A program made the position numbers and the translations under genes. A model generated the notes under the pieces. The model did no database searches and was not told where the DNA came from. It worked only from the letters and a program-made list of their open reading frames with translations. This document shows positions 14,858-42,752 of a DNA stretch of 64,000 nt, in pieces. Source of the DNA: Vicinamibacterales bacterium (lineage in GTDB: Bacteria; Acidobacteriota; Vicinamibacteria; Vicinamibacterales; UBA8438); the NCBI GenBank assembly GCA_965222905.1, contig OZ244976.1, positions 6,310,815-6,374,814 on the forward strand, written 5' to 3'. Within the stretch, counting starts at the first letter, position 1; each line of letters opens with the position of its first letter.

Positions 14858-14961
14858 GGTCGGAGTCCTCCCTACCCAAGGAATCGGCCGATCGGCGCTC
14901 GCTCAATACCCCCGTACGGCAAAGCCTCACTTTCGTGTCGTGCACCCCGCCAGACGGACCT

Positions 14962-15579
14962 TCAGGGCGGCCCGCCCCGCGAGACGGCCGGGCAATCGAC
15001 CACGTAGCCGCGCCACGGCCGCCCGGTCCCGACCGTGATCCCGATGCGCGGTCCCCAGCGAACCTCCCCGCATTGCAGGCCGCGATCCTCGATGCGCAGA
15101 CGGTCTCCGCACAGATCGACGCGATTCTGCCGCAGGGTGACCCCGAGCGCCCGCGTGAGATTGCCCGGCCCGCGGCAGAGCGCCTCGTCGGCCGGCGGCT
15201 CCGCGCCCCGGCGTCGGGGCCACCGGCGGCGGCGCATCGCGTCGAGGCCATCCAGGGGGCTGAGCGCGCGAATGAGAACCGCGGCGGGGAAACCCGCCGG
15301 TCCCGTCACCGCGTTCAGCAGGTAGTGGATCCCGTAGTTGAGATAGACGTAGGCGCAGCCGGGCGGCCCGTAGAGCGGCGCGTTGCGCGGCGTCAGGCCG
15401 GCCGCCGCGTGACACGCCGGATCGTCCTCTCCGCCGTACGCCTCGACCTCGACGATCGCGCCGGCCGTGACGCCGCCGCCCCGGCCACGGTGCACCACCA
15501 CCTTGCCGAGCAGCGTGCGGGCCACCTCGAGCGGCGGCGCGCGGTAGAACGATCGGGGCAGGCGGTCCGCGTCGCCCAC
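14962..15579 (-). CDS. mpg: DNA-3-methyladenine glycosylase (Mpg/AAG family)
   Basis: From GTG 15579: FYRAPPLEVARTLLGKVVVH...IVEVEAYGGEDDPACHAAAGLTPRNAPLYGPPGCAYVYLNYGIHYLLNAV. It is the tail of the fused ORF 14962..18600. Confidence 0.85.
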   Translation of the reverse strand: MGDADRLPRSFYRAPPLEVARTLLGKVVVHRGRGGGVTAGAIVEVEAYGGEDDPACHAAAGLTPRNAPLYGPPGCAYVYLNYGIHYLLNAVTGPAGFPAAVLIRALSPLDGLDAMRRRRWPRRRGAEPPADEALCRGPGNLTRALGVTLRQNRVDLCGDRLRIEDRGLQCGEVRWGPRIGITVGTGRPWRGYVVDCPAVSRGGPP

Positions 15580-15590
15580 GAATCGTCCCG

Positions 15591-18458
<2,868 letters not shown>

Positions 18459-18713: not shown

Positions 18714-18789
18714 GCCGGCGTAGCTCAGTTGGTAGAGCAGCTGATTCGTAATCAGCAGGTCAGCGGTTCGAGTCCGCTCGCCGGCTCCA
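18714..18789 (+). tRNA. tRNA-Thr (anticodon CGT)
   Basis: Hand-folded cloverleaf: acceptor GCCGGCG/CGCCGGC, D arm GCTC-AGTTGGTA-GAGC, anticodon stem GCTGA/TCAGC with loop TTCGTAA, T arm AGCGG-TTCGAGT-CCGCT, encoded CCA. Confidence 0.9.
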
Positions 18790-24085: not shown

Positions 24086-24820
24086 TCAAGCGCGGTCGCG
24101 GTTCAGCGCCAGCAACTCGCGGAGCGCGTCGTCTTCGGCGATGTCGGCCGGCCAGCCGTAGGCGGCCGCCACCGCGGCATCCAGGGTCGCGTGTGCGTCG
24201 GGGAGCCACCGGGGGCGGGTGTTGTAGAGGTTCGTGAGGGTGCGCTTCTTGAGGGCTTTCGCGGCGTCTTCGGCTTGCGGCTCGTGGCCGCGTTCCCGTA
24301 GCGATTGCGCGACTGCAGCGAACGACTGCGCCGCCTGTTCCGTCAGTGACTGCCGGGTCTCGCCCGGCTTGAGCCGCTCGGGGTCGGAGAACGCCCACTT
24401 CAGCCTGTCGCGTGTCGTTGCGTCGGCCAGGTCGTCCAGGCCGAACTCGTAGGTCTTGCTGACGCTGTTCGTCCAGTTGGTCCGGATCCGGAACCGCAGC
24501 ATGTCGGACACGATCAGCAGCGGCGGATTCTCCAGTGCCAGCGCGTACAGGCGGAGCTGGCCGAACGCGGCATCCAGGTCGGCTCGCTTGCCCTTGTACT
24601 CCCAGGCGAAGTGGTGTCGCTTCCAGACGTCCGCCCAGCCGTCGCCGCCGGTGTCCTTCCGAGCGCCTCGCTCGAAGCAGTACGCCTCGCCGGTCGGGTC
24701 GGCCTCGGCGGGCGTTGGCTCGCTGAGCAGGTGGCACAGGTCGATGAAGTGCTCCTGTGACGCGGAGCGTTCTTTCAGCGTCGAGGCGCGCCATTTGGTG
24801 ATGAACTCGTGTGCTGTCAT
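24086..24820 (-). pseudogene. MmeI-family type IIG enzyme, in-frame internal-deletion derivative
   Basis: First ~178 aa (MTAHEFITKWRASTLKERSASQEHFIDLC...ADVWKRHHFAWEYKGKRADL...PPLLIVSDMLRFRIRTNW) closely parallel 38195-38730. They then jump directly to the last ~60 aa (EDAAKALKKRTLTNLYNTRPRWL...AAAYGW). Methyltransferase and TRD are absent. Confidence 0.8.
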
Positions 24821-24834
24821 GTCCCCGCCACGCG

Positions 24835-25206
24835 GACCAGGCGAAGCGCGAGCACCGTGTCCCCCTGACTCGCCGCGCCGAAAAGGTCCTCGACGCCGCG
24901 CGAGCGCTGAGCAACGGGAACGCGGTCGTGTTCCCGAGCCCGCGCGGCAAGCGGTTCAACGACGGCCCTGTCGGGACTGCTCAAGACGCTGGAGGTTCCC
25001 GCCGTGCCTCACGGCTTCCGCTCCACGTTCCGCGATTGGGCGGCCGAGGAGACGAACCACCCCCGCGAGGTCCTCGAGGCGGCGCTGGCCCACGTCGTGC
25101 AAACAAGGTCGAGGCAGCGTACGCCCGCCGCGTGGGCCGGTCTGCCGATGCGGACGACGGACCCGGACCCGCCCGCGTGATCGGGGCGAGGTCGCCGAGC
25201 GCGTGA
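24835..25206 (+). pseudogene. tyrosine integrase C-terminal fragment (frameshifted)
   Basis: REHRVPLTRRAEKVLDAARALSNGNAVVFPSPRGKRF; in a second frame LSGLLKTLEVPAVPHGFRSTFRDWAAEETNHPREVLEAALAHVVQ; then a third frame NKVEAAYAR. No N-terminal half. Confidence 0.75.
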
Positions 25207-25603
25207 CGCCGGCAACCCGAGCGAGGCGGCCGAGCAGTTCTCCATCATCGTGAACCTGACGCTGGGCGGTCGGAACGCGACCGTTGTTGCCCGAAGGGGG
25301 GCCGACGCGCCGTCCGCCCCCGCCGGTGCGGGAAGTGTGATCAACAGGTGCAGAGGGTGGCTGGAGCGCCGTGGCGGCCACGCCGTCCGCGCCGGTTATG
25401 TGTCCGACTCGACGCTGGGGTACCGGTGCCCGGACGTTTTCCGGGACCGTCTGGACGACCTTCAAGCGCGGCCGCGCTCGAGAGCGACCTCCTCCGACTC
25501 GACACAGCAGCCGCGGTGCCGGCAAGCGGCGAGGGACCTGGTCGTGGAGTTCGGGCGCCCCCCCGACCGCGGGTTGCCGCGAATCGGACATCAAGTGGCC
25601 CTG

Positions 25604-25632
25604 TTGACATCTGTAAATTACGGGTGTAACAT
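25604..25632 (+). promoter_or_regulatory. sigma70-like promoter for the 25663-29519 operon
   Basis: TTGACA (25604-25609), a 17-nt spacer, then TAACAT (25627-25632), in a locally AT-richer stretch 30 nt upstream of GTG 25663. Confidence 0.5.
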
Positions 25633-25662
25633 ACACTCGTATTACGACCCGAGACAGCAACA

Positions 25663-27381
25663 GTGATTCTCACGATTGCAGAGTTGGCGCGGGCCGTGGG
25701 CAAGAGTGAGACCTACGTCCGCCAGCACGTTCATCGGAAGCACCTGACCACGCGAAGGGACGGGCGCAACGTGTCCGTGGCACTCTCGGAAGCGGTTCGT
25801 TGGGCGCGCGAGCGGGGCCTGCCGCTTGACGTACCGGCCCGCGCCGCGGTGACGACGGGCGGCGTCAAGGACCGCACCGCCCGCATGACGGTGCTGGTGT
25901 GGGATGCTCCGGGTGCACAGCCTCGCAACTTGTTCACGTTGATACGTCACCGCCGGCAGGATGCGCTGGGACCTTGGGCCGGCGAACCCGACGAGTCTTG
26001 GTCCGCCCACGATCTCGGGCATGAACTTCGTCTGTTTTCCTTCGACGCTCCCTTCGAGCGCTGCCGTGCATTGGTCGACCGCGTCCTGGATTCGGGTACG
26101 CTCGAGACTGGCGGCCTTGAAGTCCGCTATGCGTTGGAACCGGTCCCCCGCCGCCACTGGACCTATCGAGACGATCGCCCCTTCGCTGACGCCTCAATGC
26201 GCAGCCCCTTCTCGCAACACAGCGCGGAGGTCGACGAGTACTGGAGCTTCGCGGCGGAACCTCGCCAACGCTGGCTGGATGTGCTCGATGTGCTCGAGGG
26301 CCGAGCGCCGGCCGGACTCTCAGGTCTGGGCTTCCCGCTCGAGCGCCGGCCGGATCGGATCGGAAACCTCATGATCACGGGCGCAGAAGATGCGATCACC
26401 TGCGATCTGACATGGCATCGCAACCAGACGCTCCGGTTCCGCGTGGTCGCGGACGAGCCGTTGCTCGGCAGCTATCGGGCCACGATCTGGGCCAGCCACA
26501 GCCGCGATGAGGTGCTGCGGCAAGAGATTCCCGTTGTGGCGGGCCAGACAGCGATCGAGGTCCCATCCGATGTCGACCACATCGGTTTTGCGGTCTACCG
26601 GAAGGGCGACGGGCAGTGCGTGGACCTGCAGGAAGGGTTCCTGCTCAAGGAGATCGACTTGCGGATTGAGATCCAGTCCGGACCGACACAACAGCTTCTT
26701 GACGGCCGACGCCGCTTGATCCACGAAGTCAGACCATCAGGGATCATCTCGACGACCACGGTGAACACCGCCGGCGGCAAGGCCGAGCTTGACAACGGTA
26801 TCCGGCAACAATGGCTCCATCGTCAGGTCCACGAGCGAGAGACCGCTGCCCGCCGGGACGGAAACCTGTGGCGCTTCCAGCCCCACGAGTTCAACCAAGC
26901 CGTCCGGCGCTTCGTCGATCTTCTTCGTCGAGACGCCGACAGGGAGGAGCCCATCTACCTTGCCGACCCCTATTTCGTGACCTGTCAGGAAGGAGACGAA
27001 GGAGCGCGTTTGTACCTTGATATGTTCGCGGCGACGACCGGACGTCCCCTACGGGTCCTCTGCAGCGAGAACCCCGAGAAGCTCAAGAACGACGGCACAC
27101 AACCCTGGTGGTCGAAGTATCCCAACCATCTCACAAAGCACGTCCGTGTTCGGTCTTTCCTTAAACGGCAGGCACCCAAGCCCAAGCCCTGGTTTCACGA
27201 TCGCTACCTAATAACGCCCCGGCGCGAGGTCGTCATCACCCACTCCCTCAACGGCTGGCTCAAGAGTGGAGTCACCTTCGTGTGCATTCCCTACGGCGTC
27301 TACCGTGCTGAAGCAGAGAAGCTCTGGTCGTTGACTACCGGCTCGACCACCGAGGGGTTACTCGTTCGGGAAATCGCCTAA
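25663..27381 (+). CDS. HTH protein with C-terminal degenerate-HKD (PLD-like) domain, unknown family
   Basis: 572 aa. N-terminus ILTIAELARAVGKSETYVRQHV is an excisionase/MerR-like HTH. C-terminus IYLADPYF...WFHDRYLITPRREVVITHSLNGW aligns by eye to the PLD HxK(x4)D(x6)GSxN motif with K to R. The ~350-aa middle is not recognised. Confidence 0.7.
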   Translation: MILTIAELARAVGKSETYVRQHVHRKHLTTRRDGRNVSVALSEAVRWARERGLPLDVPARAAVTTGGVKDRTARMTVLVWDAPGAQPRNLFTLIRHRRQDALGPWAGEPDESWSAHDLGHELRLFSFDAPFERCRALVDRVLDSGTLETGGLEVRYALEPVPRRHWTYRDDRPFADASMRSPFSQHSAEVDEYWSFAAEPRQRWLDVLDVLEGRAPAGLSGLGFPLERRPDRIGNLMITGAEDAITCDLTWHRNQTLRFRVVADEPLLGSYRATIWASHSRDEVLRQEIPVVAGQTAIEVPSDVDHIGFAVYRKGDGQCVDLQEGFLLKEIDLRIEIQSGPTQQLLDGRRRLIHEVRPSGIISTTTVNTAGGKAELDNGIRQQWLHRQVHERETAARRDGNLWRFQPHEFNQAVRRFVDLLRRDADREEPIYLADPYFVTCQEGDEGARLYLDMFAATTGRPLRVLCSENPEKLKNDGTQPWWSKYPNHLTKHVRVRSFLKRQAPKPKPWFHDRYLITPRREVVITHSLNGWLKSGVTFVCIPYGVYRAEAEKLWSLTTGSTTEGLLVREIA

Positions 27382-29519
27382 TGACCAGCACCAAGAGACC
27401 CGAAATCTCCCTGCCTGTCGAGGCGAGAGCTGCCGTATGGCGTCTCTTCGGCGAAGGCGCTTCGCTCTCGGACAGACGGTCGTCCTACGATCTGATCGAG
27501 TCGGTTGTCCGAGAGCACGTCTCGTCGACCGACCCGGGCCGGACAATCGCAGCGATCCAGGGGTGGTTCGAACTGCATGGGGATCAGCGGTGCCTCAAAC
27601 CTCGCCTTCAGGAACCGGTTGCCGCCCTGATCCTCGAAGGGATCCGGAACGAACGGTCGGAGACCGCAATCTGGGCCGCCAGTTCCGTCGACGCAGATCG
27701 GGCTGCGAGCTTCATTCGATCCGGCTGGTCTCCCGACGAAATCGACTCTTTCGTCGAAGCTGCGCTCGGAGCGTTGGAGAGGCTCTGCGACCGAGACGAA
27801 GTTCTCGACCCAACCTGGATCTTGCCGGAGATTGATGCCTCCAACGCCCGAATTCCGAAGAGCGCCCTGGTGCGTGACGGAAGGCTGGAGACCTTTCGGC
27901 ATCTCGATGTCGTCTGCAGGGGTCTGCACCGTGCGGCCGACCGGCTTATCGAGCTCCTGGTGATGCTGCGTCCAGAACAGTTCGAACCGCTGATCGCACA
28001 CCTCGATCACCCGGTTATGCAGGCACGGGCGGCCAGCCACAGGCTCCGAACCGCCCTGCCGTTGGACCACCGCAGGACCCTGCATTGGATCACCGAGGAC
28101 TCATGCGATGACCTCGTCGCGCTGGCGATCGTACACACGCTGAACACGGTCAATCGCCTCGACGAAGACAGGTGGTCCGCCGATCGCGCGCGGGCGGACC
28201 GACGCAGTTGGAGCACCGAGCTCCGACCGCCCCGAGACGACCTCGATGCCGCTGCTGCCGGTCTCCTCACCGGCCTGGTCGATCAACTAGCCCTCCTCGA
28301 TCCCTTCGCGTGTGCGCGCTGGACCGGCGAGCTGCTCAGCAGCGCCCCCTACGTGCTCGATGCACGTAACGCCGCCGACGGCGCGAAGCCGCATCGGATC
28401 GGTCAGCTCGAGAGAGCCTGCACGGAAATGCTGGCGCGCCTCGCTCGCCAGTCGTGGTCAGACGAAATACTTGCGAATCTCCACGCCGGGCTACACCTGA
28501 CCCCGCGAACGACCTGGAACCGGCACATCGCGGTCGTCGCCTGGGAGCTACGCGAGGCGGCGCCTGATCGAGCCGCCGAGATCACGCGAGCGACTCTCGA
28601 AGAGCACGAACGGCAAGTCGCCGAGGCGTTGCGACGCAACCACCTGTTCTTGAACTGGGGAGACTGGCACGACCGCGAGTGGATCGCCGGCCTCGGGAAA
28701 TCGCTGGCCCTGTCCGAGGAAGACCTCGACCTACCGACGTGGGTTTCGTCGCGGTGCCGCGCGTTACCGTTGAGCGTGTGGGATGCCGAGGAAGATCATC
28801 CGAACTTCACCACCGCGGACCGGGTCGCCCAACACTGGTTCATCGTCGCGTTCCAGGCGCTCCAGGCACTCAAGCAGCTCGGCCGCGAGATAGACCCTGT
28901 ACCTGTCCGGGCTCTCGCCGAAACCCTGTGGTCACACTGCCGATTCGCCGGCCGGCACCTCCATGGCGCACTCGACGACTCCATCGCCGCGGAACATGCC
29001 GCCCGGTTCGTCGTCGAGTTCGGCGAACCGAGCGATACATGGCTGCTGGACCACGCGCGTCACCCTGGCGTCGGACCCTGCGCCTTGTGGGCGCTCACCG
29101 ACCAGCGCAGGATCAAGAACGCTCGCGAAGGCCGCGGAGACGGGCCGTTCGACGAAATCGTTGCCGCCGAGCTCATTGATATCGCCGCCGAGCGCTTCGA
29201 TGAAGAGGTGGACCTCGACCTCAAACGGCTACGTTTTTTGGGCTGGCTATGGCTTCTGCTGAACGCGGCCGATGCGGCCCAGCGGACCGCCAGGGCGATC
29301 ATCGCATTCCCACAACGGATGCAGGATCGCGCCGACAGAATCCTCGCGTTGAAGTTGCTTGCCCTAGCGGCCACCAGGGAAAATCCCGTGGAGGCGGTCA
29401 AGGACTACATCGCGTCGGACTACCGCCGACTTTGGCCTGGCTACACGCCTGACGAGGAACTCGCGGACCGCGAACAGGTCGACGAATTGCTCGCACAATC
29501 GGAGGCCCGCATTCTCTGA
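27381..29519 (+). CDS. large alpha-helical protein, unknown function (operon partner)
   Basis: 712 aa; ATG overlaps the upstream TAA by 1 nt (TAATG). Leu/Ala/Arg/Glu/Asp-rich composition suggests a helical protein (not predicted). No catalytic motif recognised. Confidence 0.7.
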   Translation: MTSTKRPEISLPVEARAAVWRLFGEGASLSDRRSSYDLIESVVREHVSSTDPGRTIAAIQGWFELHGDQRCLKPRLQEPVAALILEGIRNERSETAIWAASSVDADRAASFIRSGWSPDEIDSFVEAALGALERLCDRDEVLDPTWILPEIDASNARIPKSALVRDGRLETFRHLDVVCRGLHRAADRLIELLVMLRPEQFEPLIAHLDHPVMQARAASHRLRTALPLDHRRTLHWITEDSCDDLVALAIVHTLNTVNRLDEDRWSADRARADRRSWSTELRPPRDDLDAAAAGLLTGLVDQLALLDPFACARWTGELLSSAPYVLDARNAADGAKPHRIGQLERACTEMLARLARQSWSDEILANLHAGLHLTPRTTWNRHIAVVAWELREAAPDRAAEITRATLEEHERQVAEALRRNHLFLNWGDWHDREWIAGLGKSLALSEEDLDLPTWVSSRCRALPLSVWDAEEDHPNFTTADRVAQHWFIVAFQALQALKQLGREIDPVPVRALAETLWSHCRFAGRHLHGALDDSIAAEHAARFVVEFGEPSDTWLLDHARHPGVGPCALWALTDQRRIKNAREGRGDGPFDEIVAAELIDIAAERFDEEVDLDLKRLRFLGWLWLLLNAADAAQRTARAIIAFPQRMQDRADRILALKLLALAATRENPVEAVKDYIASDYRRLWPGYTPDEELADREQVDELLAQSEARIL

Positions 29520-30633
29520 CGACGGAGCCTCTTGCGAAAAGCGCATTCGGCCGAGTTTTTGCCCGAGGCGACGGGGCGACGGATGGTCAGCGGGCGAGAT
29601 GCAGCGTTCGCAGGATGGTAGTGACCGTCACTGGAGTTGACCCGGTTCCGCGCACAGGTTACGGCTTCGCTGCTGGGCGCTGTCAGCGCGCGACCGTCCC
29701 CGGACAGGCCGGCTGCCGCCGGCTGGCCGTAACGACTCGCCGGCTCTTCTTGTCGGCCGGGGTGTTTACTCTCGTGAGGACGGCACTTGGCGCCGCCCCG
29801 TGTCGATCTGGACGTACCACTCCGACGCGCGTGGATGACCGCCGCGAGGCGGCTCGGGCAACGGAGGTTGTCTTTAAGGTGGACCCGGTGCGGTGGTCGT
29901 CCGTGCCAACCTGCTCAACACCGACGTGTACGTCGGCGATGTCGCCCGGCAACGGTCTCCCACTGGCCGACCCTCGGTTCAGGAATACCGGCGGGAGTTC
30001 TGTCAGTCGACGGGCGCGACCGTGGACGCCGAGACGAGCATCTGCGTCAGCTCGCCGACCTTGAGCGTCGCCAGACCGGTCGCCGTGATGGTGACCAGCC
30101 ACCGCCGCCACGCCGTCATGATCCCGGACGGCCCCAACTACTCCACGCCGGCCGCCATGTCGCCCCTTTCAGCCCTGGACGACGAACACCCCCAGTTCGG
30201 TGATGATGCGGAAGATCGCGCCGGCCACCGCACCGTAGAGCGAGCAGACGAGCACGATCCGGAACCAGTTCCAGAAGAGGAACGAGAGCTGCGGGAAGAC
30301 CGTCCGAGGGATGAAGACCGATCCGCCAACCGTCCCCAGTCGGCTCAGATAGTCCTGCGGAGTGTGATTGAGTCCAGATCGAAATTGGGAACGGAATAGG
30401 GAACGAAAAATCCCGTTCTTCCCGTAAGTTGTTCATTAACAATGGGTTGAGAAAAAAGCGCAGCGTTCGGTGCGGAAGCCGTCTCTCGCTTTCCTGACGC
30501 TGTCGTTCAGCTCGCCGTCCGTCGACACGGTGGGTCGGGTCACCCCACTGTAGATGCCGCCACCATCGCGACCGGCTCGACGCCGAGTAGCGCGATCCAA
30601 TGGGTCGACGACCTCCCGGATTCGACGGCCCCG

Positions 30634-31761
30634 TTACTCCATGCGGAGCGTGATCATCGGGTCGACGCACGCGGCGCGATGCGCCGGCAGGCATGCCGCG
30701 GACAAGGCCGCGGTCACGAGCAGCAACGCGACACCCCCAAGGACGACGACGTCGTTCGGATGCACATCGACCAGGAGTCGAGCCATCAGATGGGCGAGCG
30801 GCACGGCCAATGCCAGGCCGATGGCCACCCCGATCGCGCAAGACCGCGCGGCCTCCCGGAGCACGAGTCTCAGGACGCGTCCCCGCGGCTCGCCGAGCGC
30901 CAACCGCACACCGATTTCGCGCCGTCGCCGGCTGGCGTCGTAGGCGGTCATGGCGTAGACGCCCATTGCCGACATCACGAGCGCCAGCAGGCCGAACACC
31001 GAGAACGTCTGGCTCCACAGGCGCGGCACCCAGTGCACGACGTCCAGCACCTGCGGCATGGTCAGGATGTTGTAGACGGGAACGGTCTCATCCACCGCCT
31101 GCAGCTCGGTTCGAAGGTTGGCTACTGTCCGGGAGGCGTCGGCAGGGGTGCGGACCGCCAGCGTCATCAACGGCGTGGGCTGGGCCCCGTAGGGCAGGTA
31201 CAACTGGTCCGCCGGCACCGTGTCGAAGCCCAGGACCTGCGCTGGCGGTGTGACGTCGCGTGTGATCCCGACCACCGTCAGCCAAGGGCCGGGTTCCTGG
31301 TCTCCCTCTCGGCCGGCGAGCCGCACCCGCCGGCCGACCCGCGTGCCGTCCGGCCAGATCCGACGGGTGATTCCGTCGCTCAGGAGCACGACATCTCTTC
31401 CCTCGTCGACCTCTACGGCCGTGAAGGGCCGCCCGGCGACTATCGGGATCTCCATGGTCTCAAGATAGCCGGCCATCACGACATGCCGTGTCGCGAGGCG
31501 CGCCTCGCCGCGTTCGCCGGCCTCGCCTTCGACCTCGAAGGTGACGGTCGGCGCGAAACCCTCGCGGCTCGCCGGAAGCACCGACACCGCGCCGACCGAC
31601 TCGACGAGGCGCGCGCGCCGAAGGCGGTCGATCGCCCGGTCGAGGTATCCCAGGCGCTGGCGCGGGTCTTCGTAGGCGCCGCCGGTGAGCGATACTCGCA
31701 TCGTTACGATGCCGTCGGTCGCGTAGCAGCCCGTGGAACAAGGTTGTCGGCGGCCTGACAT
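30634..31761 (-). pseudogene. MacB/FtsX-type (ADOP-like) ABC permease, C-terminal half only
   Basis: ...VESVGAVSVLP...TVVGITRDV...LRTELQAVDETVPVYNILTMPQVL...FSVFGLLALVMSAMGVYAMTAYDASRRRREIGVRLALGE...AHRAACVDPMITLRME. The N-terminal half is removed at the IS boundary near 31770. Confidence 0.75.
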
Positions 31762-31769
31762 CGGTTGAG

Positions 31770-33290
31770 GGGGTGCGGATCTGAAAGTGTAACATGGGGT
31801 TTGAGCCGGCCAGCGGCTTTTCCAAGCTCACGCCGCCTCAAGATGAAGCATGGACCGTTTCAGCCCCCACACCCGCCTCAGGCGCTCCCAGCAGCCCCGC
31901 CAGCGCCCGATCAGACCGTAAATCGCCGACAAAGCCCGCCCCTGCAGGCTCCGGGGCGTACCAACGCCGGTCTGCCGGCGCAGGAGCAGCCCGATGTTGC
32001 AGGCGGCCGCCTGGATCAGCACGCGCTTGCGGACATTGTCGTGGCCGCGCACCCAGACCCGACGCATACCGCCCGTCTCATACATGTGCGCGAAAGTACG
32101 CTCCACCACTTCGCCTCGGCGGCGTTGCAGGCGACGACCCCGCCGCCCCCGCACACGCCGGCGGTTCGCATACAACGCTTTCTGCGCAGCACGCTTCTCC
32201 GGCGGCGTCTCGCCCGTCTTCTTGTCCTGCCAGCAGCGACGGCCGCGCTCCGGCTCCGATACGTGACTCCGAACCCCTACCTCGCCGAGCCCCACCAACG
32301 TCTCGTCGCTGTGATAGCCCTTGTCGGCCACCACCTCTTCGACCCCCGCGCCCTCCGGCTGCACCGCTTCAACCTGTTCGGCCGCCATGATCAGCGTCTC
32401 CGGCAGCGTGGCCGTATCACCGTCCGATGCATCCTGCACCGTCACCGAGACGATGGCGCCCGTGTCCATGTCGACCCCGTGCTCGGCCTTGTGAGCCAAG
32501 TGCGTCCGACCGTCCTTCATCTTCGCGATCTTCGCGTCAGGATCCTGCGGCGATTTCCACTCCTTGTTCGACGTCTTCTTGTTCTTCCGAGACCGGTCGA
32601 ACCGAGCCAGCTCCGCACGCGTCGGCGTCTCCACACCCGACGCTTCCGCCAACCGCCGAATGAACGCCTCGTTCGATTCCCCCGTGTCCCGCCGCTCGAT
32701 GCTCCGCATCGCCGCGTTCGCTTCCAGCGTCGTCGCATCGATGCCGACCGTCTTCCCGACGACCAGACCCGCTTCAGACAGTCGCTCCAGAACCCACGTG
32801 AACACCGCTTCGTGCGTTTCCACGTCGATCAACCGGCGCGTCCGCGACAACGTCGAGTGATCCGGCGCCGACTCGCTCAACTCCAGGTCCAGGAACGACC
32901 GCAGGCTCAGTGAATCGGCCACCCGCCACGCAATCCCCCGCTCCGAAGACAGGCCCTCGAAGTAGCCGATCAACAGCATCCGGAAATACCGCCCAGGACG
33001 CAGACTCGGCCGTCCCAGCCGCGCCGCGTAGAAGGCCGAGCACAACCCTTCCACGAACGCGTCGAACCCGCAGTCCTCCAGGACCCGATTCAGGCGCTCG
33101 AAGAAGGGATGACCGTCGCTCGTCGGAAGGTCCGCCGTTTCCACCCACAGCGGCGACGCTTGGCGCGCCACCGGTCTCTTGCCCATCGCCATGCCGTGCA
33201 GTCTACGGGGTTCGGCCGCGCCGGGGCCAGGCCGAATCCGCGACTTTCGCCACGGGCTGGTAGCCGCCCTCCGCACGATCGAGGGTCAGA
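31770..33290 (-). mobile_element. IS5/IS1182-like insertion sequence (boundaries approximate)
   Basis: Single transposase gene lying between the truncated permease and the truncated PadR gene. Only a weak 7-nt terminal match (GTGCGGA) was seen, so the ends are not resolved. Confidence 0.65.
31828..33192 (-). CDS. IS5/IS1182-family DDE transposase
   Basis: MAMGKRP...HPFFERLNRVLEDCGFDAFVEGLC...RPGRYFRMLLIGYFEGLSSERGIAWRVADSLSLRSFL (InsH-type N-domain) ...VGIDATTLEANAAMRSI...VVADKGYHSDE...GMRRVWVRGHDNVRKRVLIQAAACNIGLLLR. Confidence 0.85.
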   Translation of the reverse strand: MAMGKRPVARQASPLWVETADLPTSDGHPFFERLNRVLEDCGFDAFVEGLCSAFYAARLGRPSLRPGRYFRMLLIGYFEGLSSERGIAWRVADSLSLRSFLDLELSESAPDHSTLSRTRRLIDVETHEAVFTWVLERLSEAGLVVGKTVGIDATTLEANAAMRSIERRDTGESNEAFIRRLAEASGVETPTRAELARFDRSRKNKKTSNKEWKSPQDPDAKIAKMKDGRTHLAHKAEHGVDMDTGAIVSVTVQDASDGDTATLPETLIMAAEQVEAVQPEGAGVEEVVADKGYHSDETLVGLGEVGVRSHVSEPERGRRCWQDKKTGETPPEKRAAQKALYANRRRVRGRRGRRLQRRRGEVVERTFAHMYETGGMRRVWVRGHDNVRKRVLIQAAACNIGLLLRRQTGVGTPRSLQGRALSAIYGLIGRWRGCWERLRRVWGLKRSMLHLEAA

Positions 33291-35203: not shown

Positions 35204-35660
35204 TTACGGGGAAGCGTTCTCGTTGGCTTTGTCGCCCTTGCGCAGCCGCTTGATCGCCTTGCGCTGTTTCTTCAGGTCTTTCGGCGCGTAGAGTTTCGTG
35301 GTCTCTGCGTTCGTATGTCCGTACATGTCCTGGATGTCGGCGATGTCGGCGCCGCTCCGTCGCAGGCCGAAGGCGAAGCTGTGCCGGATCTGGTACGTTG
35401 TGAACCGCTTCACCCCGGCCATCTCGGCTGCCTTGGTCAGTGCCTTGTTGGCCGGCTGGGTCTTCCATTCGCCGAAGGCGTCCGTGTCGATGAACTGGCG
35501 GGCTGCGCTGAGCCCTTCTTCCACCAGTGGGATCGAGGCGGTGCGTCCGCCCTTCCCGCGGGGCACGATGATGTGGGGAATCGGCTCATTCAGGTGGAAG
35601 TTGTCCAGCGTCAGCCGTCCCATCACCGACGGCCTCATTCCGGTCCAGTGCATCAGGTGG
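35204..35660 (-). pseudogene. tyrosine recombinase C-terminal fragment (truncated by IS3)
   Basis: HWTGMRPSVMGRLTLDNF...IIVPRGKGGRTASIPL...FTTYQIRHSFAFGLRRSGADIADIQDMYGHTNAETTKLYA (R, HxxR, H, Y). N-terminal half replaced by the IS3 left end at 35661. Confidence 0.75.
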
Positions 35661-35726
35661 TGAGGTGGTCCCGCTTTTTCGGACCACTGGCTAAGGTGTA
35701 TTCCAGAGCCTGGAGGAGGCACTGGG

Positions 35727-36014
35727 ATGACGACGAAACGACGGCGGCAGTTCACCGCGAACTTCAAGAAACGGGTGGCGCTCGAGGCGCTGCGCGGGGA
35801 CCGCACGGTGCAGGCGATCGCGGCCAAGCACGAGGTTCATCCGAACCAGGTGGGCGCGTGGAAGCGCCAAGCGGCCGACGGGCTGGAGGATGTCTTCGCT
35901 GGCGGCAGAGCATCGCGCGACTCCGAGCACGAGGCGACGATCCGGGACTTGCACGCGAAGATCGGCGAGTTGACGGTGGAGCGGGATTTTTTTCTGCGCG
36001 GCTTGCAACGCTGA
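35727..36014 (+). CDS. IS3-family transposase OrfA (HTH)
   Basis: 95 aa MTTKRRRQFTANFKKRVALEALRGDRTVQAIAAKHEVHPNQVGAWKRQ...LHAKIGELTVERDFF. Confidence 0.85.
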   Translation: MTTKRRRQFTANFKKRVALEALRGDRTVQAIAAKHEVHPNQVGAWKRQAADGLEDVFAGGRASRDSEHEATIRDLHAKIGELTVERDFFLRGLQR

Positions 36015-36847
36015 GCCGCGCCGCACGCCTGGAGCTGGTCGAGCGGGGCGGCGAGTTGAGCATCCGGCGCCAGTGCGCGTTGCTCGGCATCAACCGCTCG
36101 TCGGTGTACTACACGCCGCGGGAAGAGCGCGCGGAGAACTTGGCCTTGATGCGGCGGATGGACGAATTGTCGCTGCAGTACCCGTTCTACGGCAGCCGGC
36201 AGATGGCGCGCCACCTGGGACGCGAGGGCGTGTCGGTGGGGCGGCGCCGGGTCCGCCGGCTGATGCGTCTGATGGGGCTGGAAGCGGTCTACCGCAAGCC
36301 GCGCACGAGCGCCGCGCAGCCGGGTCACCGCATCTATCCGTATCTGCTTCGAGAGCTGACGATAGAGCGCCCGGACCAGGTCTGGTGCGCCGACATCACC
36401 TACATCCCGGTGACGGCGGGCTTCCTGTACCTGGTCGCGGTCATGGACTGGGCCAGCCGTCACGTGCTGGCCTGGCGACTGTCGAACACGATGGACACCG
36501 GCTTCTGCATCGAGGCGCTGGAAGCGGCGCTTCGGACGGGCACGCCCGAGATCTTCAACACCGATCAGGGAGCGCAGTTTACCAGCGCGGCGTTCACCGA
36601 GCGGGTGCTGGCGGCGGGGGCGCGATGCTCGATGGACGGCCGCGGGCGGTGCCTGGACAACGTCTTCATCGAGCGGCTGTGGCGGTCGCTGAAGTACGAA
36701 GCGGTGTATCTGCACGAGTTGGCCGATGGGTTCGAGGCCGAGCGGGTGATCGGGACCTGGATGACGTTCTACAGCGACGTACGTCCGCACTCGGCGCTCG
36801 GGGGTCGCACGCCGGCCGAGGCCTACGGCGAGGAGCGTGCAGCGTGA
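35990..36847 (+). CDS. IS3-family transposase OrfB (DDE integrase domain, via -1 frameshift)
   Basis: -1 frame after the TTTTTTT run at 35987-35993: LSIRRQCALLGINRSSVYY...DQVWCADITYIPVTAGFLYLVAVMDWASRHVLAW...FNTDQGAQFTSAAF...MDGRGRCLDNVFIERLWRSLKYE. Confidence 0.85.
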   Translation, partial: FSARLATLSRAARLELVERGGELSIRRQCALLGINRSSVYYTPREERAENLALMRRMDELSLQYPFYGSRQMARHLGREGVSVGRRRVRRLMRLMGLEAVYRKPRTSAAQPGHRIYPYLLRELTIERPDQVWCADITYIPVTAGFLYLVAVMDWASRHVLAWRLSNTMDTGFCIEALEAALRTGTPEIFNTDQGAQFTSAAFTERVLAAGARCSMDGRGRCLDNVFIERLWRSLKYEAVYLHELADGFEAERVIGTWMTFYSDVRPHSALGGRTPAEAYGEERAA

Positions 36848-37987: not shown

Positions 37988-38194
37988 TCATGAGGCCGCA
38001 AGATTCCCACAGCTCATCATCATCTATGATCAGAAACGAGGCCCTCGAATGGTCCAAACGACCGGGACCACCTCAGACCTCGGCCGCCTTTGTCGCGTGC
38101 TCGCGCACGACGACCGCACGATTGCGAGCCGGTCATTCCATATTGTCTAACCACGACCTACGACCGGACGCCGACCGGACAATCCGGAGACGCA

Positions 38195-39844
38195 ATGACG
38201 CCTCACGAGTTCATCGCGAAGTGGCGGGCCTCAGAACTCAAGGAGCGCTCCGCGTCCCAAGAGCACTTCATCGACCTGTGCAAGCTGCTCGGCGAGCCGA
38301 CGCCGGCCGAAGCCGACCCGGCCGGCGACACCTACTGCTTCGAGCGGGGCGCCCGGAAGGACACCGGCGGCGACGGCTGGGCGGATGTCTGGAAGCGCCA
38401 CCACTTCGCCTGGGAGTACAAGGGGCGGCGCGCCAATCTCGACGCCGCGTTCGGGCAGCTCCGGCAGTACGCGCTGGCGCTAGAGAACCCGCCGCTGCTG
38501 ATCGTCTCCGACATGGTGCGGTTCCGGATCCGCACCAACTGGACGAACAGCGTTAGCCGGACCCACGAGTTCGAGCTCGACGACTTGGCCGATGCCGCGA
38601 CCCGCGACCGGCTGAAGTGGGCGTTCTCCGACCCCGAGCGTCTACGGCCGGGCGAGACCCGGCAGTCGCTCACCGAGCGGGTGGCGGCGTCGTTCGCGTC
38701 CGTCGCCCAGGCGCTCCGTGAACGGGGGCACGACCCTCAGGCGGTCGCCCACTTCGTCAACCGACTGGTGTTCTGCATGTTCGCCGACGATGTCGGCCTG
38801 CTGCCGGACAACATGTTCACGCGGATGCTGCGCCATGCCCTGCCCGCCCCAACACGGTTCGGTGAGCTCGCTGGCGAGCTCTTCCGGGCGATGGCGGCCG
38901 GCGGCCGCGTCGGCTTCGAGACGGTGGACTGGTTCAACGGCAGCCTGTTCAACGACGACACTACGCTGCCGCTGGAGAAGACCGACATCGCGGCCGTGCT
39001 CGCGGCGTCCGACCTCGACTGGTCCGAGATCGACCCATCGATCCTCGGCACGCTGTTCGAGCGCGGGCTCGATCCGGACAAGCGCGCCCAGCTCGGGGCC
39101 CACTACACCGACCGGGGAAAGATCATGCTGCTCGTCGAACCGGTGGTCGTCAGGCCGCTGGTCGCCGAGTGGAACAGGGAAAAGGCCGAGATCGCGGCCG
39201 AGCTGGAACGGGCCGAAGCCGCCACGTCTCGCTCCGCCCGCACTAAGCGCTTGAACGACGCCGAACGGCGGTACAGCGCGTTCCTTAACCGCCTGCGTGG
39301 GTTCACGGTGCTCGACCCCGCCTGCGGGTCGGGAAACTTCCTGTACCTCGCCCTGCAGGCGCTCAAGAACCTCGAGCACCGCGTCCAGATCGAGGCCGAG
39401 GCGCTGGGGTTCCAGCGGGCATTCCCTGAGGTCGGCCCGGGCAACGTCAAAGGCATCGAGATCAACCCCTATGCGGCGGAGCTCGCGCGCGTGTCGGTCT
39501 GGATCGGCGAGATCCAGTGGATGCGTCGCAACGGGTTCGGGGAGGCGAGGGACCCGATCCTGAAGCCCCTTGACACCATCGAGTCCCGGGACGCGATCCT
39601 GACGCCGGACGGCCTCGAACCGGAGTGGCCGAACGCAGATGTTGTCATCGGAAACCCGCCCTTTCTCGGTGCCGGACTTCAGATTGCCAAACTCGGCGAG
39701 GACTACGTGTCTCGAATCCGACGAGCCTACAGCGGGCGCGTGCCAGGAGGCGCAGATCTCGTCTGCTACTGGTTTGCCAAGGCGGGCACACAAATGGGAG
39801 TCGGCGGAGCCACGCGGACGGGCCTCGTTGCGACGAATTCAATT
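38195..39844 (+). pseudogene. MmeI-family type IIG restriction-modification enzyme, 5' part (IS-disrupted)
   Basis: MTPHEFIAKWRASELKERSASQEHFIDLC...GWADVWKRHHFAWEYKGRR (N-terminal nuclease D...EXK); FTVLDPACGSGNFLY (SAM motif I); VVIGNPPFLG (motif IV). Reading frame broken at 39845 by the IS end. Confidence 0.88.
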
Positions 39845-41000: not shown

Positions 41001-41065
41001 CCAGCGCGGTGCTGGCGCGCGGCCTGGACAAGCGGCGGTTACGGGGGTTACGGGAGCGTTGAGCC

Positions 41066-42676: not shown

Positions 42677-42752
42677 CTCTTGCCATGCCGCTCGCAGCCC
42701 CTCCTGGACCCCTCTGGACCGCCGACGCAAAAGAGCCGCACCCAATTCAATT

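What the first reader, a model, noticed from the sequence alone, without database searches (positions are those of the whole stretch)
25604..29519. Intact two-gene operon: HTH plus degenerate-HKD (PLD-like) protein with a 712-aa helical partner - candidate undescribed defence or exclusion system
Almost every neighbouring gene in this 45-kb region is truncated, frameshifted or IS-disrupted, yet these two long ORFs (572 and 712 aa) are intact. They are translationally coupled (TAATG at 27379-27383) and sit behind a good TTGACA-17-TAACAT promoter. Protein A starts with an excisionase/MerR-type HTH (ILTIAELARAVGKSETYVRQHV). It ends with IYLADPYF...WFHDRYLITPRREVVITHSLNGW, which I can align by eye to the single-HKD nuclease motif HxK(x4)D(x6)GSxN (as in Nuc/BfiI-type PLD nucleases) with K replaced by R and GS by HS. 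The 350 residues in between match nothing I know. Protein B appears helical from composition and has no motif I recognise (no P-loop, no HEPN Rx4-6H in convincing context). Flanks are an integrase fragment and a decayed MmeI-family gene (left) and decayed efflux genes (right), which is defence-island or integrative-element context. A DNA-binding, PLD-like nuclease plus a large sensor or scaffold protein is a plausible architecture for an anti-phage or anti-plasmid system, but this pairing is not one I can name.
Basis: partly seen in the sequence, partly recalled or inferred. Interest (0 to 1): 0.82.

Follow-up and report, generated by a model that had tools for sequence, protein, structure and literature searches.

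The report
Self-regulated two-gene Juno-like defence candidate
An intact, horizontally spreading two-gene cassette encodes a DNA-binding protein ending in a phospholipase-D-like nuclease-type domain plus a large helical partner; it sits among bacterial immunity genes and is a distant, unnamed relative of the recently reported Juno anti-phage protein, so it is most likely an undescribed anti-phage or anti-plasmid system.

Summary
Two intact, overlapping ORFs lie behind the only sigma-70-like promoter in the region: A (25663-27381, 572 aa) and B (27381-29519, 712 aa).

- **Pairing.** B follows A in every evaluable related locus, across more than 12 phyla. This holds even for A relatives at 23% identity and for a clade that lacks the HTH.
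- **Unit of transfer.** DNA similarity between genomes begins at the promoter and ends at the B stop codon. dN/dS is 0.2-0.37.
- **Protein A.** It has an excisionase-type HTH, an unassigned alpha/beta domain, beta-sandwiches, and a C-terminal domain with a PLD-like fold. That domain carries invariant His512-x-Arg514 and Ser528.
- **Protein B.** It is an alpha-solenoid with no specific relative.
- **New finding.** Two GTAA-N-TTAC palindromes overlap the promoter. They are absent upstream of HTH-less versions, so the HTH most likely autoregulates the operon.
- **Known relatives.** No Pfam, PADLOC or PHROGs family covers either protein beyond the HTH. A's core is a sub-threshold relative of NCBIfam VPA1262_N_dom. 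The VPA1262 family was named the Juno anti-phage system in an August 2026 preprint.
- **Context.** Neighbours are rich in restriction-modification, AbiE, Avs, PARIS and mobile-element genes.

Verdict: a new two-gene variant of a Juno-like, PLD-type defence system. The function is inferred, not shown.

The parts
25604..25632 (+). Promoter: -35 TTGACA (25604-25609), 17-nt spacer, -10 TAACAT (25627-25632)
   Evidence: Sequence read. It is the only sigma-70-like match in 25200-30000. The -35 hexamer is conserved in the upstream alignment of 20 loci. DNA similarity to other genomes begins here, at 25580-25604.
25613..25621 (.). Operator-like palindrome 1, GTAAATTAC (GTAA-N-TTAC), in the promoter spacer
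   Evidence: Exact match. It is conserved next to the -35 hexamer in alignment A7. Exact sites lie within 200 nt upstream of A in 20 of about 50 loci, against 3 exact sites in about 977 kb of other locus DNA.
25626..25634 (.). Operator-like palindrome 2, GTAACATAC (one mismatch), 13 bp after site 1 and overlapping the -10 hexamer
   Evidence: The 13-bp spacing of two sites (about -50 and -37 from the A start) recurs in L006, L008, L009, L021, L022, L034 and L053.
25663..27381 (+). Gene A, 572 aa: HTH, alpha/beta domain, beta-sandwiches, long helix, PLD-like domain
   Evidence: There are 462 homologues, and the AF2 model has mean pLDDT 79.
25663..25812 (+). A residues 1-50: excisionase/MerR-type winged HTH
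   Evidence: Pfam HTH_17 E 0.0025, TIGR01764 excisionase E 0.0036 and PADLOC mad1 E 0.0014, all below curated cut-offs. AF2 gives helix-turn-helix plus a beta-hairpin. Foldseek BFVD matches phage HTH/excisionase proteins with TM 0.86 and rmsd 1.3 A.
25864..26358 (+). A residues 68-232: alpha/beta domain of unassigned fold with superfamily-wide motifs S181-P182-F, E192-x-W194 and D-R-x-G234-N235
   Evidence: No match in PDB sequences, and no detectable homology to the C-terminal domain.
26368..26772 (+). A residues 236-370: beta-sandwich region; confidence is lower for residues 329-383
   Evidence: AF2 secondary structure. The Foldseek hits to GH2 glycosidases and to the small beta-sandwich protein 4g5a most plausibly fall here, but the output does not give the aligned query residues.
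26860..27378 (+). A residues 400-572: single PLD-like domain
   Evidence: Foldseek: TrmBL2 E 6.5e-6, FAM83A 4urj E 1e-4 (TM 0.53), Streptomyces PLD 1v0s E 1.3e-3; viral PLD phosphodiesterase and poxvirus F13-like lipase. The output does not give the aligned residues, so placement in this domain rests on the motifs. Y432 (in IYLADPYF), H512, R514, S528, G536 and W555 are invariant in 25 diverse relatives.
27196..27204 (+). His512-Asp513-Arg514, the candidate active-site HxR (counterpart of HxK)
   Evidence: H and R are invariant and D nearly invariant, down to 17% overall identity.
27244..27252 (+). Ser528-Leu-Asn530, counterpart of the GSxN element
   Evidence: S528 is invariant. The His-to-Ser spacing is 16 residues, against 15 in the canonical HKD motif (canonical spacing from established knowledge).
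27379..27383 (+). TAATG stop/start overlap between A and B
   Evidence: In 24 of the 35 loci where a downstream B ORF was called, the first in-frame start codon of B overlaps the end of A by 1-8 nt. In 8 more the mechanical ORF start lies 35-61 nt inside A. In 4 loci a gap of 81-224 nt was called.
27381..29519 (+). Gene B, 712 aa: all-alpha solenoid partner
   Evidence: 326 homologues. The AF2 model has pLDDT 85.6 and pTM 0.80. Foldseek gives only generic solenoids such as importin-beta and Ski3, with TM about 0.2. B is always immediately downstream of A. DNA similarity to other genomes ends at its stop codon.

Best explanation
A and B form a self-contained, horizontally mobile two-gene defence-type module. 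It is a two-gene branch of the superfamily that includes the N-terminal domain of VPA1262/Juno anti-phage proteins.

Shown by the analyses:
- The unit is promoter plus A plus B.
- The two genes are co-inherited and usually overlap at the stop/start junction.
- Both are under purifying selection.
- The unit has moved between phyla.
- It sits among immunity genes and mobile-element genes.

Inferred:
1. The N-terminal excisionase-type HTH of A binds two GTAA-N-TTAC palindromes that overlap its own -35/-10 promoter. This keeps the operon at a low, self-limited level.
2. The C-terminal PLD-like domain of A is the effector. It would be a metal-independent phosphodiesterase, most likely a nuclease. 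Its active site uses invariant His512, Arg514 (in place of Lys) and Ser528/Asn530. Because there is only one such motif per chain, the site would be completed by dimerisation.
3. B, an alpha-solenoid made in fixed ratio with A, binds A. It acts as the sensor or regulator that keeps the effector silent until a phage or plasmid component is recognised.
4. Activation leads to cleavage of invader or host nucleic acid, and so to exclusion or abortive infection.
For: Pairing:
- B lies immediately downstream of A in 43 of 45 genome loci by tblastn. The exceptions are L042, where the contig ends, and L047.
- In L047 the downstream gene matches the B profile by hhalign at 97.9% probability, E 3.5e-13.
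- The distant HTH-less gut clade also has an overlapping 588-604 aa partner. One of the two tested matches B at 81% probability, E 1.2e-5.
- Identity of A and of B to the window copies correlates across 43 loci, r = 0.96.

Unit of transfer and selection:
- blastn similarity starts at 25580-25604 and ends at 29519-29526.
- dN/dS is 0.21-0.37. dS to a Nitrospirales copy is only about 1.1.

Autoregulation:
- The -35 hexamer and the palindromes are the only conserved upstream elements.
- At least one site with at most one mismatch is present upstream in 25 of 36 HTH-bearing loci, against 0-1 of 10 HTH-less loci. Fisher p is 9e-5 to 1e-3.

Effector:
- PLD-fold proteins are among the Foldseek matches.
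- H512, R514 and S528 are invariant down to 17% identity.

Link to a validated defence protein:
- A and its relatives hit NF040700 VPA1262_N_dom at E 4e-5 down to 6e-14, over a consistent span.
- The gut clade links to the A profile at E about 1e-35 to 1e-38.

Context:
- In L052 the pair lies inside a type I R-M locus.
- An MmeI-family type IIG gene is the immediate neighbour in L023, L028, L033 and L050/L051, and a decayed copy lies about 0.8 kb upstream in the window.
- Flanks within 3.5 kb across 48 loci hold AbiE, type I/IIG/III R-M, Avs2, AriA, HerA, PDC-S01, PDC-S35, CAP12-TIR and Schlafen genes, plus integrases and transposases.
- L055 has Nmad3 and a DruA fragment nearby.

Not phage-borne: no relatives were found in IMG/VR, GenBank phages or PHROGs.
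Against: - No experiment supports the function, and no PADLOC model matches either protein.
- The NF040700 hit is far below the curated cut-off: 22 bits for A and at most 52 bits for relatives, against 80. I could not obtain the Juno sequence for a direct comparison, and Juno's own mechanism is unknown.
- No PLD-family HMM reaches significance. Only 1 of 21 C-terminal domains gives a weak MIT_C hit, E 0.016.
- The two best-scoring PLD-fold matches, TrmBL2 and FAM83A, are non-catalytic to my knowledge.
- The canonical Asp of the HKD motif is missing.
- A-B binding, dimerisation and any sensing role for B are untested. B has no conserved catalytic or ligand-binding signature.
- The defence-context count has no genome-wide background control.
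- The second palindrome coincides with an extended -10 element, so part of its conservation may reflect promoter function alone.
- 11 of 36 HTH-bearing loci lack a recognisable site.
Confidence: 0.55

Rival explanations
1. The pair is an addiction or toxin-antitoxin-like module. A is a PLD-type nuclease toxin and B its neutralising partner. The cassette persists and spreads because losing it is harmful, without serving as an immune system.
For: The genes are tightly coupled, with an overlapping stop/start and an autoregulated promoter, which is typical of type II TA operons. The cassette is retained intact inside decayed islands in the window and in L055. It sits among TA genes such as MazE, PIN, AbiE and BrnA. 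It is rare and patchy, with only 165 clusters at 50% identity among 1.84 billion representatives.
Against: Both proteins are very large for a TA pair (572 and 712 aa). In type II TA operons the DNA-binding autoregulator is normally the antitoxin, whereas here the HTH sits on the presumed effector. HTH-less versions keep the pair. Many TA-like modules also act as abortive-infection systems, so this rival overlaps with the best explanation. Some genomes carry disrupted A copies (L032, L045, L046), which shows the gene can be lost.
Confidence: 0.15
2. A is a TrmB-like transcription factor, with an HTH, a dimerisation helix and a non-catalytic PLD-fold ligand-binding domain. B is an accessory scaffold. 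The pair regulates or mediates some niche-specific function, for example host association in symbionts, rather than immunity.
For: The best Foldseek match is TrmBL2, E 6.5e-6, and FAM83A, a PLD-fold protein that is non-catalytic to my knowledge, is next. The palindromes suggest sequence-specific DNA binding. B resembles eukaryote-type solenoids such as importin-beta and TTC7. Eukaryote-like repeat proteins are reported as enriched in sponge symbionts (PMC8163846). The close family occurs almost only in MAGs of taxa typical of sponge microbiomes.
Against: His512, Arg514 and Ser528 are invariant across the whole superfamily. That is not expected for a degenerate ligand-binding PLD fold. Whole clades lack the HTH yet keep the core and the partner. 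Exact palindromes occur only at the operon's own promoter, not elsewhere in about 977 kb of loci, so there is no sign of a regulon. No Pfam TrmB hit was found. Distant relatives occur in gut Gastranaerophilales, Endomicrobiaceae and Bacteriovoracia, so the superfamily is not sponge-specific.
Confidence: 0.12
3. The pair is an accessory or back-up nuclease of restriction-modification systems, or a modification-dependent (type IV-like) restriction enzyme that works alongside MmeI-family type IIG or type I enzymes.
For: An MmeI-family gene is the immediate neighbour in four independent loci, and a decayed copy lies about 0.8 kb upstream in the window. In L052 the pair lies between hsdS and hsdR. 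PLD-family restriction nucleases such as BfiI exist (established knowledge).
Against: About 43 of 49 loci have no adjacent R-M gene. The transferred unit ends exactly at the promoter and the B stop codon and never includes a methyltransferase. The adjacent R-M types differ, which fits generic defence-island clustering better than a fixed partnership.
Confidence: 0.1
4. A is a recombinase or excisionase-like mobility protein, and the cassette is itself a transposable element.
For: A has an excisionase-type HTH. The cassette has sharp, identical boundaries in unrelated genomes. It has neighbours in many different genomic contexts.
Against: No terminal inverted or direct repeats flank the module. 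The boundaries coincide with a promoter and a stop codon. Each of the 45 loci comes from a different genome record. No recombinase or transposase family hit was found. HTH-less versions are equally conserved. No PLD-family transposase is known to me.
Confidence: 0.03

Closest known systems
Juno (VPA1262 family; founders WP_005477100.1 / WP_231113970.1 of V. parahaemolyticus and WP_397323501.1 of Pantoea agglomerans; bioRxiv 10.64898/2026.08.01.741415)
   Same: The core of A (residues about 176-518) aligns with NCBIfam NF040700 VPA1262_N_dom. The PLD-like region lies within that span. Relatives of A hit the same model at E down to 6e-14. Both are found in mobile defence islands.
   Different: Scores are far below the family cut-off (22-52 bits against 80). 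Juno is reported as a single-gene system, whereas here a 712-aa partner is obligatory and A often carries an N-terminal HTH. Juno homologues are described in Gram-negative genera. This family is in uncultured Acidobacteriota, Latescibacterota, Chloroflexota, Nitrospirota and others. I could not test whether Juno's C-terminal part resembles B, because no Juno sequence was available.
Single-HKD PLD-superfamily nucleases (Nuc, BfiI, Zucchini)
   Same: There is one PLD-fold domain per chain, attached to a separate DNA-binding module as in BfiI. His, Ser and Asn of the signature are kept with near-canonical spacing. An I-x-L-A-D-P-Y-F first strand resembles the PLD first-strand motif (canonical motif from established knowledge).
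   Different: Lys is replaced by Arg, the conserved Asp is absent, and Gly before Ser is replaced by His or Asn. No PLDc, PLDc_2 or PLDc_N HMM hit was found. About 330 extra residues of unassigned alpha/beta and beta-sandwich domains lie between the HTH and the PLD-like domain. No activity has been shown.
TrmB / TrmBL2 archaeal regulators
   Same: This is the best structural match (E 6.5e-6, 222 aligned columns). The layout is the same: N-terminal winged HTH, long helix, PLD-fold domain.
   Different: TrmB-family PLD-fold domains lack the catalytic residues (established knowledge). A keeps an invariant His/Arg/Ser set. TM scores are low (0.33), no Pfam TrmB hit was found, and A has additional domains and an obligatory partner gene.
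PLD-nuclease effectors of known defence systems (Mokosh MkoB, DISARM DrmC)
   Same: The effector logic is the same: a PLD-type phosphodiesterase used for anti-phage defence and paired with a larger partner protein.
   Different: No sequence relationship is detectable, and no PADLOC hit was found at E <= 1 beyond the HTH. The partner here is a non-enzymatic solenoid, not a helicase or methylase.
Non-catalytic PLD-fold domains (FAM83 DUF1669, MITD1 MIT_C)
   Same: The fold-level match to FAM83A has TM 0.53. One family member gives a weak MIT_C hit, E 0.016.
   Different: Those are eukaryotic scaffolding or lipid-binding domains. The conservation pattern here points to a retained active site.

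Membership tests
PLD superfamily (HKD phosphodiesterases) | PLD alpha/beta fold | tested here: met
   Foldseek against PDB: TrmBL2 E 6.5e-6, FAM83A E 1e-4 with TM 0.53, Streptomyces PLD 1v0s E 1.3e-3. Against BFVD: PLD phosphodiesterase E 2e-3 and poxvirus F13-like lipase E 5e-3. The outputs do not give the aligned query residues.
PLD superfamily (HKD phosphodiesterases) | HxK(x4)D(x6)GSxN signature | tested here: inconclusive
   H512 is invariant, K is replaced by an invariant R514, and the Asp position is not conserved. G-S-x-N appears as [HN]-S528-x-N530, and the His-to-Ser spacing is 16 against 15. It is a variant signature, not the canonical one.
PLD superfamily (HKD phosphodiesterases) | Significant match to a PLD-family sequence profile | tested here: not met
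   No PLDc-type Pfam hit at E <= 1 for A. Of 21 C-terminal domains, only one gives a weak MIT_C hit, E 0.016. The PDB sequence profile search found none.
PLD superfamily (HKD phosphodiesterases) | Phosphodiesterase activity through a covalent phospho-histidine intermediate; two motifs brought together by dimerisation | not testable with these tools
   This needs biochemistry or a multimer model.
VPA1262 / Juno family | Score at or above the curated NCBIfam cut-off for NF040700 (80 bits) | tested here: not met
   A scores 22.4 bits. Relatives score 27-52 bits. The alignments are consistent, so homology is likely but membership is not established.
VPA1262 / Juno family | Single-gene system | tested here: not met
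   A always comes with B.
VPA1262 / Juno family | Anti-phage activity on expression | not testable with these tools
   This is experimental. Activity is reported only for the Vibrio and Pantoea proteins.
Excisionase / MerR-type HTH (Pfam HTH_17, TIGR01764) | Profile match at the gathering threshold | tested here: not met
   HTH_17 scores 18.5 bits against 27. TIGR01764 scores 17.6 against 28.8. Two of the 120 listed homologues carry a precomputed PF12728 hit.
Excisionase / MerR-type HTH (Pfam HTH_17, TIGR01764) | Winged helix-turn-helix fold | tested here: met
   AF2 residues 1-50 have pLDDT 83-92. Phage HTH/excisionase models match with TM 0.64-0.86 and rmsd 0.7-1.3 A.
TrmB family regulators | TrmB HTH and TrmB C-terminal domain profiles | tested here: not met
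   No Pfam TrmB or Regulator_TrmB hit was found. There is structural resemblance only.
Any system in PADLOC-DB v2.0.0 | Match of a component to a system model | tested here: not met
   The only hit is mad1, which is the HTH, at E 0.0014 for A. B has none.
HEPN or P-loop proteins (for B) | Conserved Rx4-6H or Walker A motif | tested here: not met
   R376-x5-H382 is nearly invariant in the close family but is lost in the Dehalococcoidia and L047 partners. No Pfam hit was found.

The most novel reading that the evidence does not exclude
A-B defines a previously unrecognised two-component immune system. Its effector uses a new His-x-Arg variant of the PLD active site, gated by a dedicated alpha-solenoid sensor. 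Juno would then be a single-gene offshoot of the same superfamily. The close family would circulate as a shared defence cassette among at least a dozen phyla of one host-associated community, apparently marine-sponge symbionts.
Probability: 0.35. Interest if true: 0.75.

Novelty: new variant of a known kind. Interest (0 to 1): 0.6.

Why it matters
If the inference holds, four things follow.

- **A handle on Juno's mechanism.** Juno was validated only in 2026 and its mechanism is unknown. This locus points to a PLD-like domain with an invariant His/Arg/Ser set as the likely effector, and it shows that the superfamily's older form may be a two-gene system.
- **A new partner family.** B is an alpha-solenoid family with no known relative, and could be a new sensor type.
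- **A testable regulatory circuit.** The HTH and two palindromes over the promoter can be tested directly.
- **A case of recent inter-phylum transfer.** The cassette is 55-90% identical across phyla, and dS is about 1. That makes it a clean marker of gene flow within an uncultured, host-associated microbial community, where defence genes are reported to be enriched and laterally transferred (PMC8163846).

It also shows which genes selection still maintains inside a heavily decayed island.

Tried and rejected
- **Direct comparison with Juno.** I found no VPA1262 sequence. tblastn of A and of the relative closest to the NCBIfam model (P0317) against PLSDB plasmids gave nothing. A profile search with the distant clade returned only unnamed gut and termite-type proteins. 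The papers' supplements hold no sequence.
- **Sequence-level proof of PLD membership.** Profiles of full-length A and of the C-terminal domain alone against PDB sequences gave only chance hits. A per-member Pfam scan gave one weak MIT_C hit.
- **A as a two-lobed pseudo-dimeric PLD.** hhalign of the N-terminal alpha/beta domain against the C-terminal domain gave 0.3% probability. The N-domain profile against PDB found nothing. I rejected this idea for lack of evidence.
- **B as an enzyme (HD, HEPN).** The motifs DWHDREW, SVWDAEE and R376-x5-H382 are conserved in the close family but not in distant partners. Foldseek gives only generic solenoids. Rejected.
- **Transposon hypothesis.** No flanking repeats were found.
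- **Phage origin.** No relatives were found in IMG/VR, GenBank phages or PHROGs. The scan of viral contigs with the most diverse alignment could not run, because no stretch was conserved enough.
- **A third conserved gene.** Similarity stops at the B stop codon, and downstream genes differ between loci.
- **Rosetta-stone A-B fusion.** None appears among the listed homologues. The longest A-type protein is 657 aa.

Full report
**1. Observation**

The window holds ORF A at 25663..27381 (+, GTG, 572 aa) and ORF B at 27381..29519 (+, ATG, 712 aa). The stop of A and the start of B overlap as TAATG at 27379-27383. TTGACA, a 17-nt spacer and TAACAT lie at 25604-25632. This is the only sigma-70-like match in 25200-30000, against 0.3 expected in shuffles. 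No terminator-like site follows B.

Both proteins align end to end with hundreds of homologues: 462 for A and 326 for B. Identity reaches 91% for A and 99% for B. Against four other copies, dN/dS is 0.21-0.34 for A and 0.27-0.37 for B. The genes are therefore intact and under constraint.

- an MmeI-family gene reduced to residues 9-207 plus 901-961 of about 961 (24098-24844, minus strand)
- an integrase C-terminal fragment (24838-25099)
- a MacB-type permease (30634-31758, minus strand)
- two IS transposases (31828-33273 and 35315-36844)
- a second MmeI-family gene split by a 2.8-kb insertion (38192-39892 and 42720-43946)

**2. The pair is a conserved, self-contained unit**

A scan of one genome per GTDB species found 45 loci, all in MAGs. 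They span Vicinamibacterales, Latescibacterota, Gemmatimonadota, Nitrospirota, Nitrospinota, Bacteroidota, Binatia, Spirochaetia, Alpha- and Gammaproteobacteria, Chloroflexota and Bacteriovoracia.

By tblastn, a B homologue lies directly after A in 43 of the 45. One exception, L042, is a contig end. The other, L047, has an A relative at 23% identity. Its downstream 693-aa gene matches the B profile at 97.9% probability, E 3.5e-13.

An exhaustive profile search of 1.84 billion representative proteins found only 165 hits. Among them is a distant clade of 450-510 aa that lacks the HTH. That clade occurs in Gastranaerophilales and Endomicrobiaceae and also has an overlapping downstream gene of 588-604 aa. 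One of the two partners tested matches the B profile at 81% probability, E 1.2e-5. The other does not reach significance.

In 24 of the 35 loci where a B ORF was called, its first in-frame start codon overlaps the end of A by 1-8 nt. Identity of A and of B to the window copies correlates across 43 loci, r = 0.96.

Nucleotide similarity between the window and other genomes begins at 25580-25604 and ends at 29519-29526. The flanks are unrelated. The transferred unit is therefore promoter plus A plus B. No terminal repeats bracket it.

Synonymous divergence is only 0.26-0.28 to a Vicinamibacterales copy and about 1.1 to a Nitrospirales copy. That is too low for vertical descent between phyla, so it indicates recent horizontal transfer.

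**3. Anatomy of A**

The AlphaFold2 model has mean pLDDT 79. Its pTM is 0.48, so domain packing is uncertain. It shows:
- a winged HTH (residues 1-50)
- an alpha/beta domain (about 68-232)
- beta-sandwiches (about 236-370)
- a long helix (374-398)
- a C-terminal alpha/beta domain (400-572)

The HTH gives sub-threshold hits to HTH_17, TIGR01764 excisionase and PADLOC mad1. It superposes on phage HTH/excisionase models with TM up to 0.86.

Foldseek against the PDB returns TrmBL2 (E 6.5e-6), FAM83A (E 1e-4, TM 0.53) and Streptomyces PLD (E 1.3e-3). Against viral models it returns a PLD phosphodiesterase and a poxvirus F13-like lipase. All of these have a PLD fold. The outputs do not list the aligned query residues, so assigning these matches to the C-terminal domain rests on its motifs.

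In an alignment of 25 relatives at 17-51% identity, the invariant residues are Y432, H512, R514, S528, G536 and W555. D435, P436, R464, D513 and E522 are nearly invariant. The motif F-H-D-R-[YW]...E...T-[HN]-S-[LI]-N fits HxK(x4)D(x6)GSxN, with Lys replaced by Arg, the Asp lost, and Gly replaced by His or Asn. IYLADPYF resembles the PLD first-strand motif.

No PLD sequence profile reaches significance. PLD membership therefore rests on fold plus a variant motif. A retained His/Arg/Ser set argues for an active site, whereas the PLD folds of TrmB and FAM83 are non-catalytic to my knowledge. That is inference.

The N-terminal alpha/beta domain carries superfamily-wide S-P-F, E-x-W and D-R-x-G-N motifs. 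It has no detectable relative and is not a second PLD lobe by hhalign.

**4. Anatomy of B**

The model is confident (pLDDT 85.6, pTM 0.80) and all-alpha. Foldseek finds only generic solenoids such as importin-beta, Ski3 and TTC7, at E about 1e-4 to 1e-3 and TM about 0.2. No family, PDB-sequence or PADLOC match exists.

When distant partners are included, only structural residues stay invariant. B looks like a scaffold or sensor, not an enzyme.

**5. New finding: an operator at the promoter**

I aligned about 120 nt upstream of A from 20 loci. Only the -35 hexamer and two copies of GTAA-N-TTAC are conserved. The consensus is TTGACA-nn-TGTAAATTACA-nn-TGTAATTTACA. The second copy overlaps the -10 element.

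Exact GTAANTTAC occurs within 200 nt upstream of A in 20 of about 50 loci, 26 sites in all. These are often a pair 13 bp apart, at about -50 and -37. Only 3 exact sites occur in about 977 kb of the remaining locus DNA.

No HTH-less A gene has an exact site within 200 nt upstream; the only one-mismatch match among them is at -99 in L050/L051, against 25 of 36 HTH-bearing loci with at least one site. Fisher p is 9e-5 to 1e-3, not corrected for relatedness.

In the window the sites are 25613-25621 (exact) and 25626-25634 (one mismatch). The simplest reading is that the HTH represses its own promoter. This also explains why the HTH is dispensable in whole clades. It is a regulatory add-on, not the nuclease's targeting module.

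One caveat applies. The second site doubles as an extended -10 element, so only the first site is unambiguous evidence for an operator.

**6. Relation to known systems**

PADLOC-DB v2 has no model for either protein.

NCBIfam gives one informative hit. A residues 176-518 match NF040700, the VPA1262 family N-terminal domain, at E 4.4e-5. The score is 22 bits against a cut-off of 80. Relatives hit the same model over the same span at up to 52 bits, E 5.8e-14. Those relatives are tied to the A profile at E 1e-35 to 1e-38. The homology is therefore credible, but membership is not met.

The VPA1262 family was renamed Juno in an August 2026 preprint. [quoted passage not shown] The founder lies in the GMT defence island VPaI-6. 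Juno is reported as a single gene.

I could not obtain a Juno sequence. Whether its C-terminal part corresponds to B therefore stays open.

**7. Context**

In L052 (Nitrospirales) the gene order is integrase, hsdM, Fic, an unannotated ORF, hsdS, then A and B, then a 589-aa ORF, MazE and hsdR. The pair is thus embedded in a type I R-M locus.

An MmeI-family type IIG gene is the immediate neighbour in L023, L028, L033 and L050/L051. A decayed copy lies about 0.8 kb upstream in the window.

I scanned 247 ORFs lying within 3.5 kb of the pair in 48 loci. The most frequent families were:
- AbiEii and AbiEi
- MmeI, Eco57I and N6_Mtase
- type I and type III R-M components
- Avs2, AriA and HerA
- HEC-01A, PDC-S01 and PDC-S35
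- CAP12-TIR, Schlafen AlbA_2 and NACHT
- tyrosine and serine recombinases and DDE transposases

L055, whose A is 91% identical, has Nmad3, IS66, an integrase fragment and a DruA fragment nearby. L001 and L002 have IS and TA genes. L053 sits among cobalamin genes with no obvious defence neighbour.

This is typical defence-island context, but I ran no genome-wide background control.

No relatives occur in IMG/VR, GenBank phages, PLSDB plasmids or PHROGs.

**8. Habitat**

All close homologues come from MAGs. The bin names (SB0661, RHO1, RHO3) and the taxa match those of marine-sponge microbiomes described in PMC8163846. That paper also reports enrichment and lateral transfer of defence genes among sponge symbionts. 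The record titles do not name hosts, so the sponge link is an inference.

The distant HTH-less clade is in human-gut Gastranaerophilales and in Endomicrobiaceae.

**9. Mechanism and verdict**

The best explanation (confidence 0.55) is an autoregulated two-gene defence module. The A HTH represses the operon. The A PLD-like domain (His512, Arg514, Ser528) is a phosphodiesterase or nuclease effector that probably needs dimerisation. B is the bound sensor or regulator.

The shown steps are gene integrity, coupling, co-inheritance, selection, horizontal transfer, the fold, motif invariance, operator conservation, remote homology to the Juno N-terminal domain, and defence-island context. The inferred steps are DNA binding by the HTH, catalysis, A-B binding, sensing, and any anti-phage effect.

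The rivals are a TA-like addiction module (0.15), a TrmB-like regulator with a non-defence role (0.12), an R-M accessory or type IV-like nuclease (0.10) and a mobility function (0.03).

The locus is best filed as a new two-gene variant of a PLD-type, Juno-like defence system. It is not a member of any curated family.

Noticed in passing
window 38192-39892 and 42720-43946 (+): A second MmeI-family type IIG R-M gene, 69-73% identical in protein to the intact genes next to the pair in L023 and L033. It is split by an insertion of about 2.8 kb (39893-42719) whose long ORFs have no Pfam match.
   Followed up: partly
window 24098-24844 (-): An MmeI-family gene with a large internal deletion. Only residues about 9-207 and 901-961 of a protein of about 961 aa remain. 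It is 75-77% identical to the L023 and L033 genes.
   Followed up: yes
window 18714-18789 and 24838-25099: A tRNA-Thr (CGT) gene lies about 6 kb upstream of a frameshifted tyrosine-integrase C-terminal fragment. This may be the remnant of the integration site of the island that carries the pair.
   Followed up: no
L023, L028, L033, L050/L051 and the window: An MmeI-family type IIG gene is the immediate neighbour of the A-B pair in four independent lineages, in varying orientation, and a decayed copy lies about 0.8 kb upstream in the window. This may be more than generic island clustering.
   Followed up: partly
L052 3954-19661: In a Nitrospirales MAG the pair sits between hsdS and hsdR of a type I R-M locus. 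An integrase, Fic, MazE and an unannotated 589-aa ORF (14172-15941) are also there.
   Followed up: partly
L036-L041, L043, L044 (Dehalococcoidia/Chloroflexota): A whole clade of A genes starts at about residue 63, with no HTH and no GTAA-N-TTAC sites upstream. I did not look at how these copies are regulated.
   Followed up: partly
L032 8194-8625 and 10061-11302; L045; L046: A is interrupted by an insertion of about 1.4 kb in L032. In L045 and L046 only its C-terminal part matches. The cassette therefore also decays in some genomes.
   Followed up: no
L048/L049 (human-gut Gastranaerophilales): The distant HTH-less pair (489 and 588 aa) is seen on more than 100 contigs. Its neighbours are DUF3800, a Toprim protein and an HTH_3 regulator, which suggests an integrated mobile element.
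   Followed up: no
locus list as a whole: Close homologues occur almost only in MAGs whose taxa and bin names match marine-sponge microbiomes. Protein identity between phyla is 40-70%. The cassette could be a marker of gene flow inside that community.
   Followed up: partly
window 26001-30000: G+C of the pair is 62-66%, slightly below the window average of about 68%. The roughly 60 nt between the -35 hexamer and the A start codon are markedly AT-richer.
   Followed up: no
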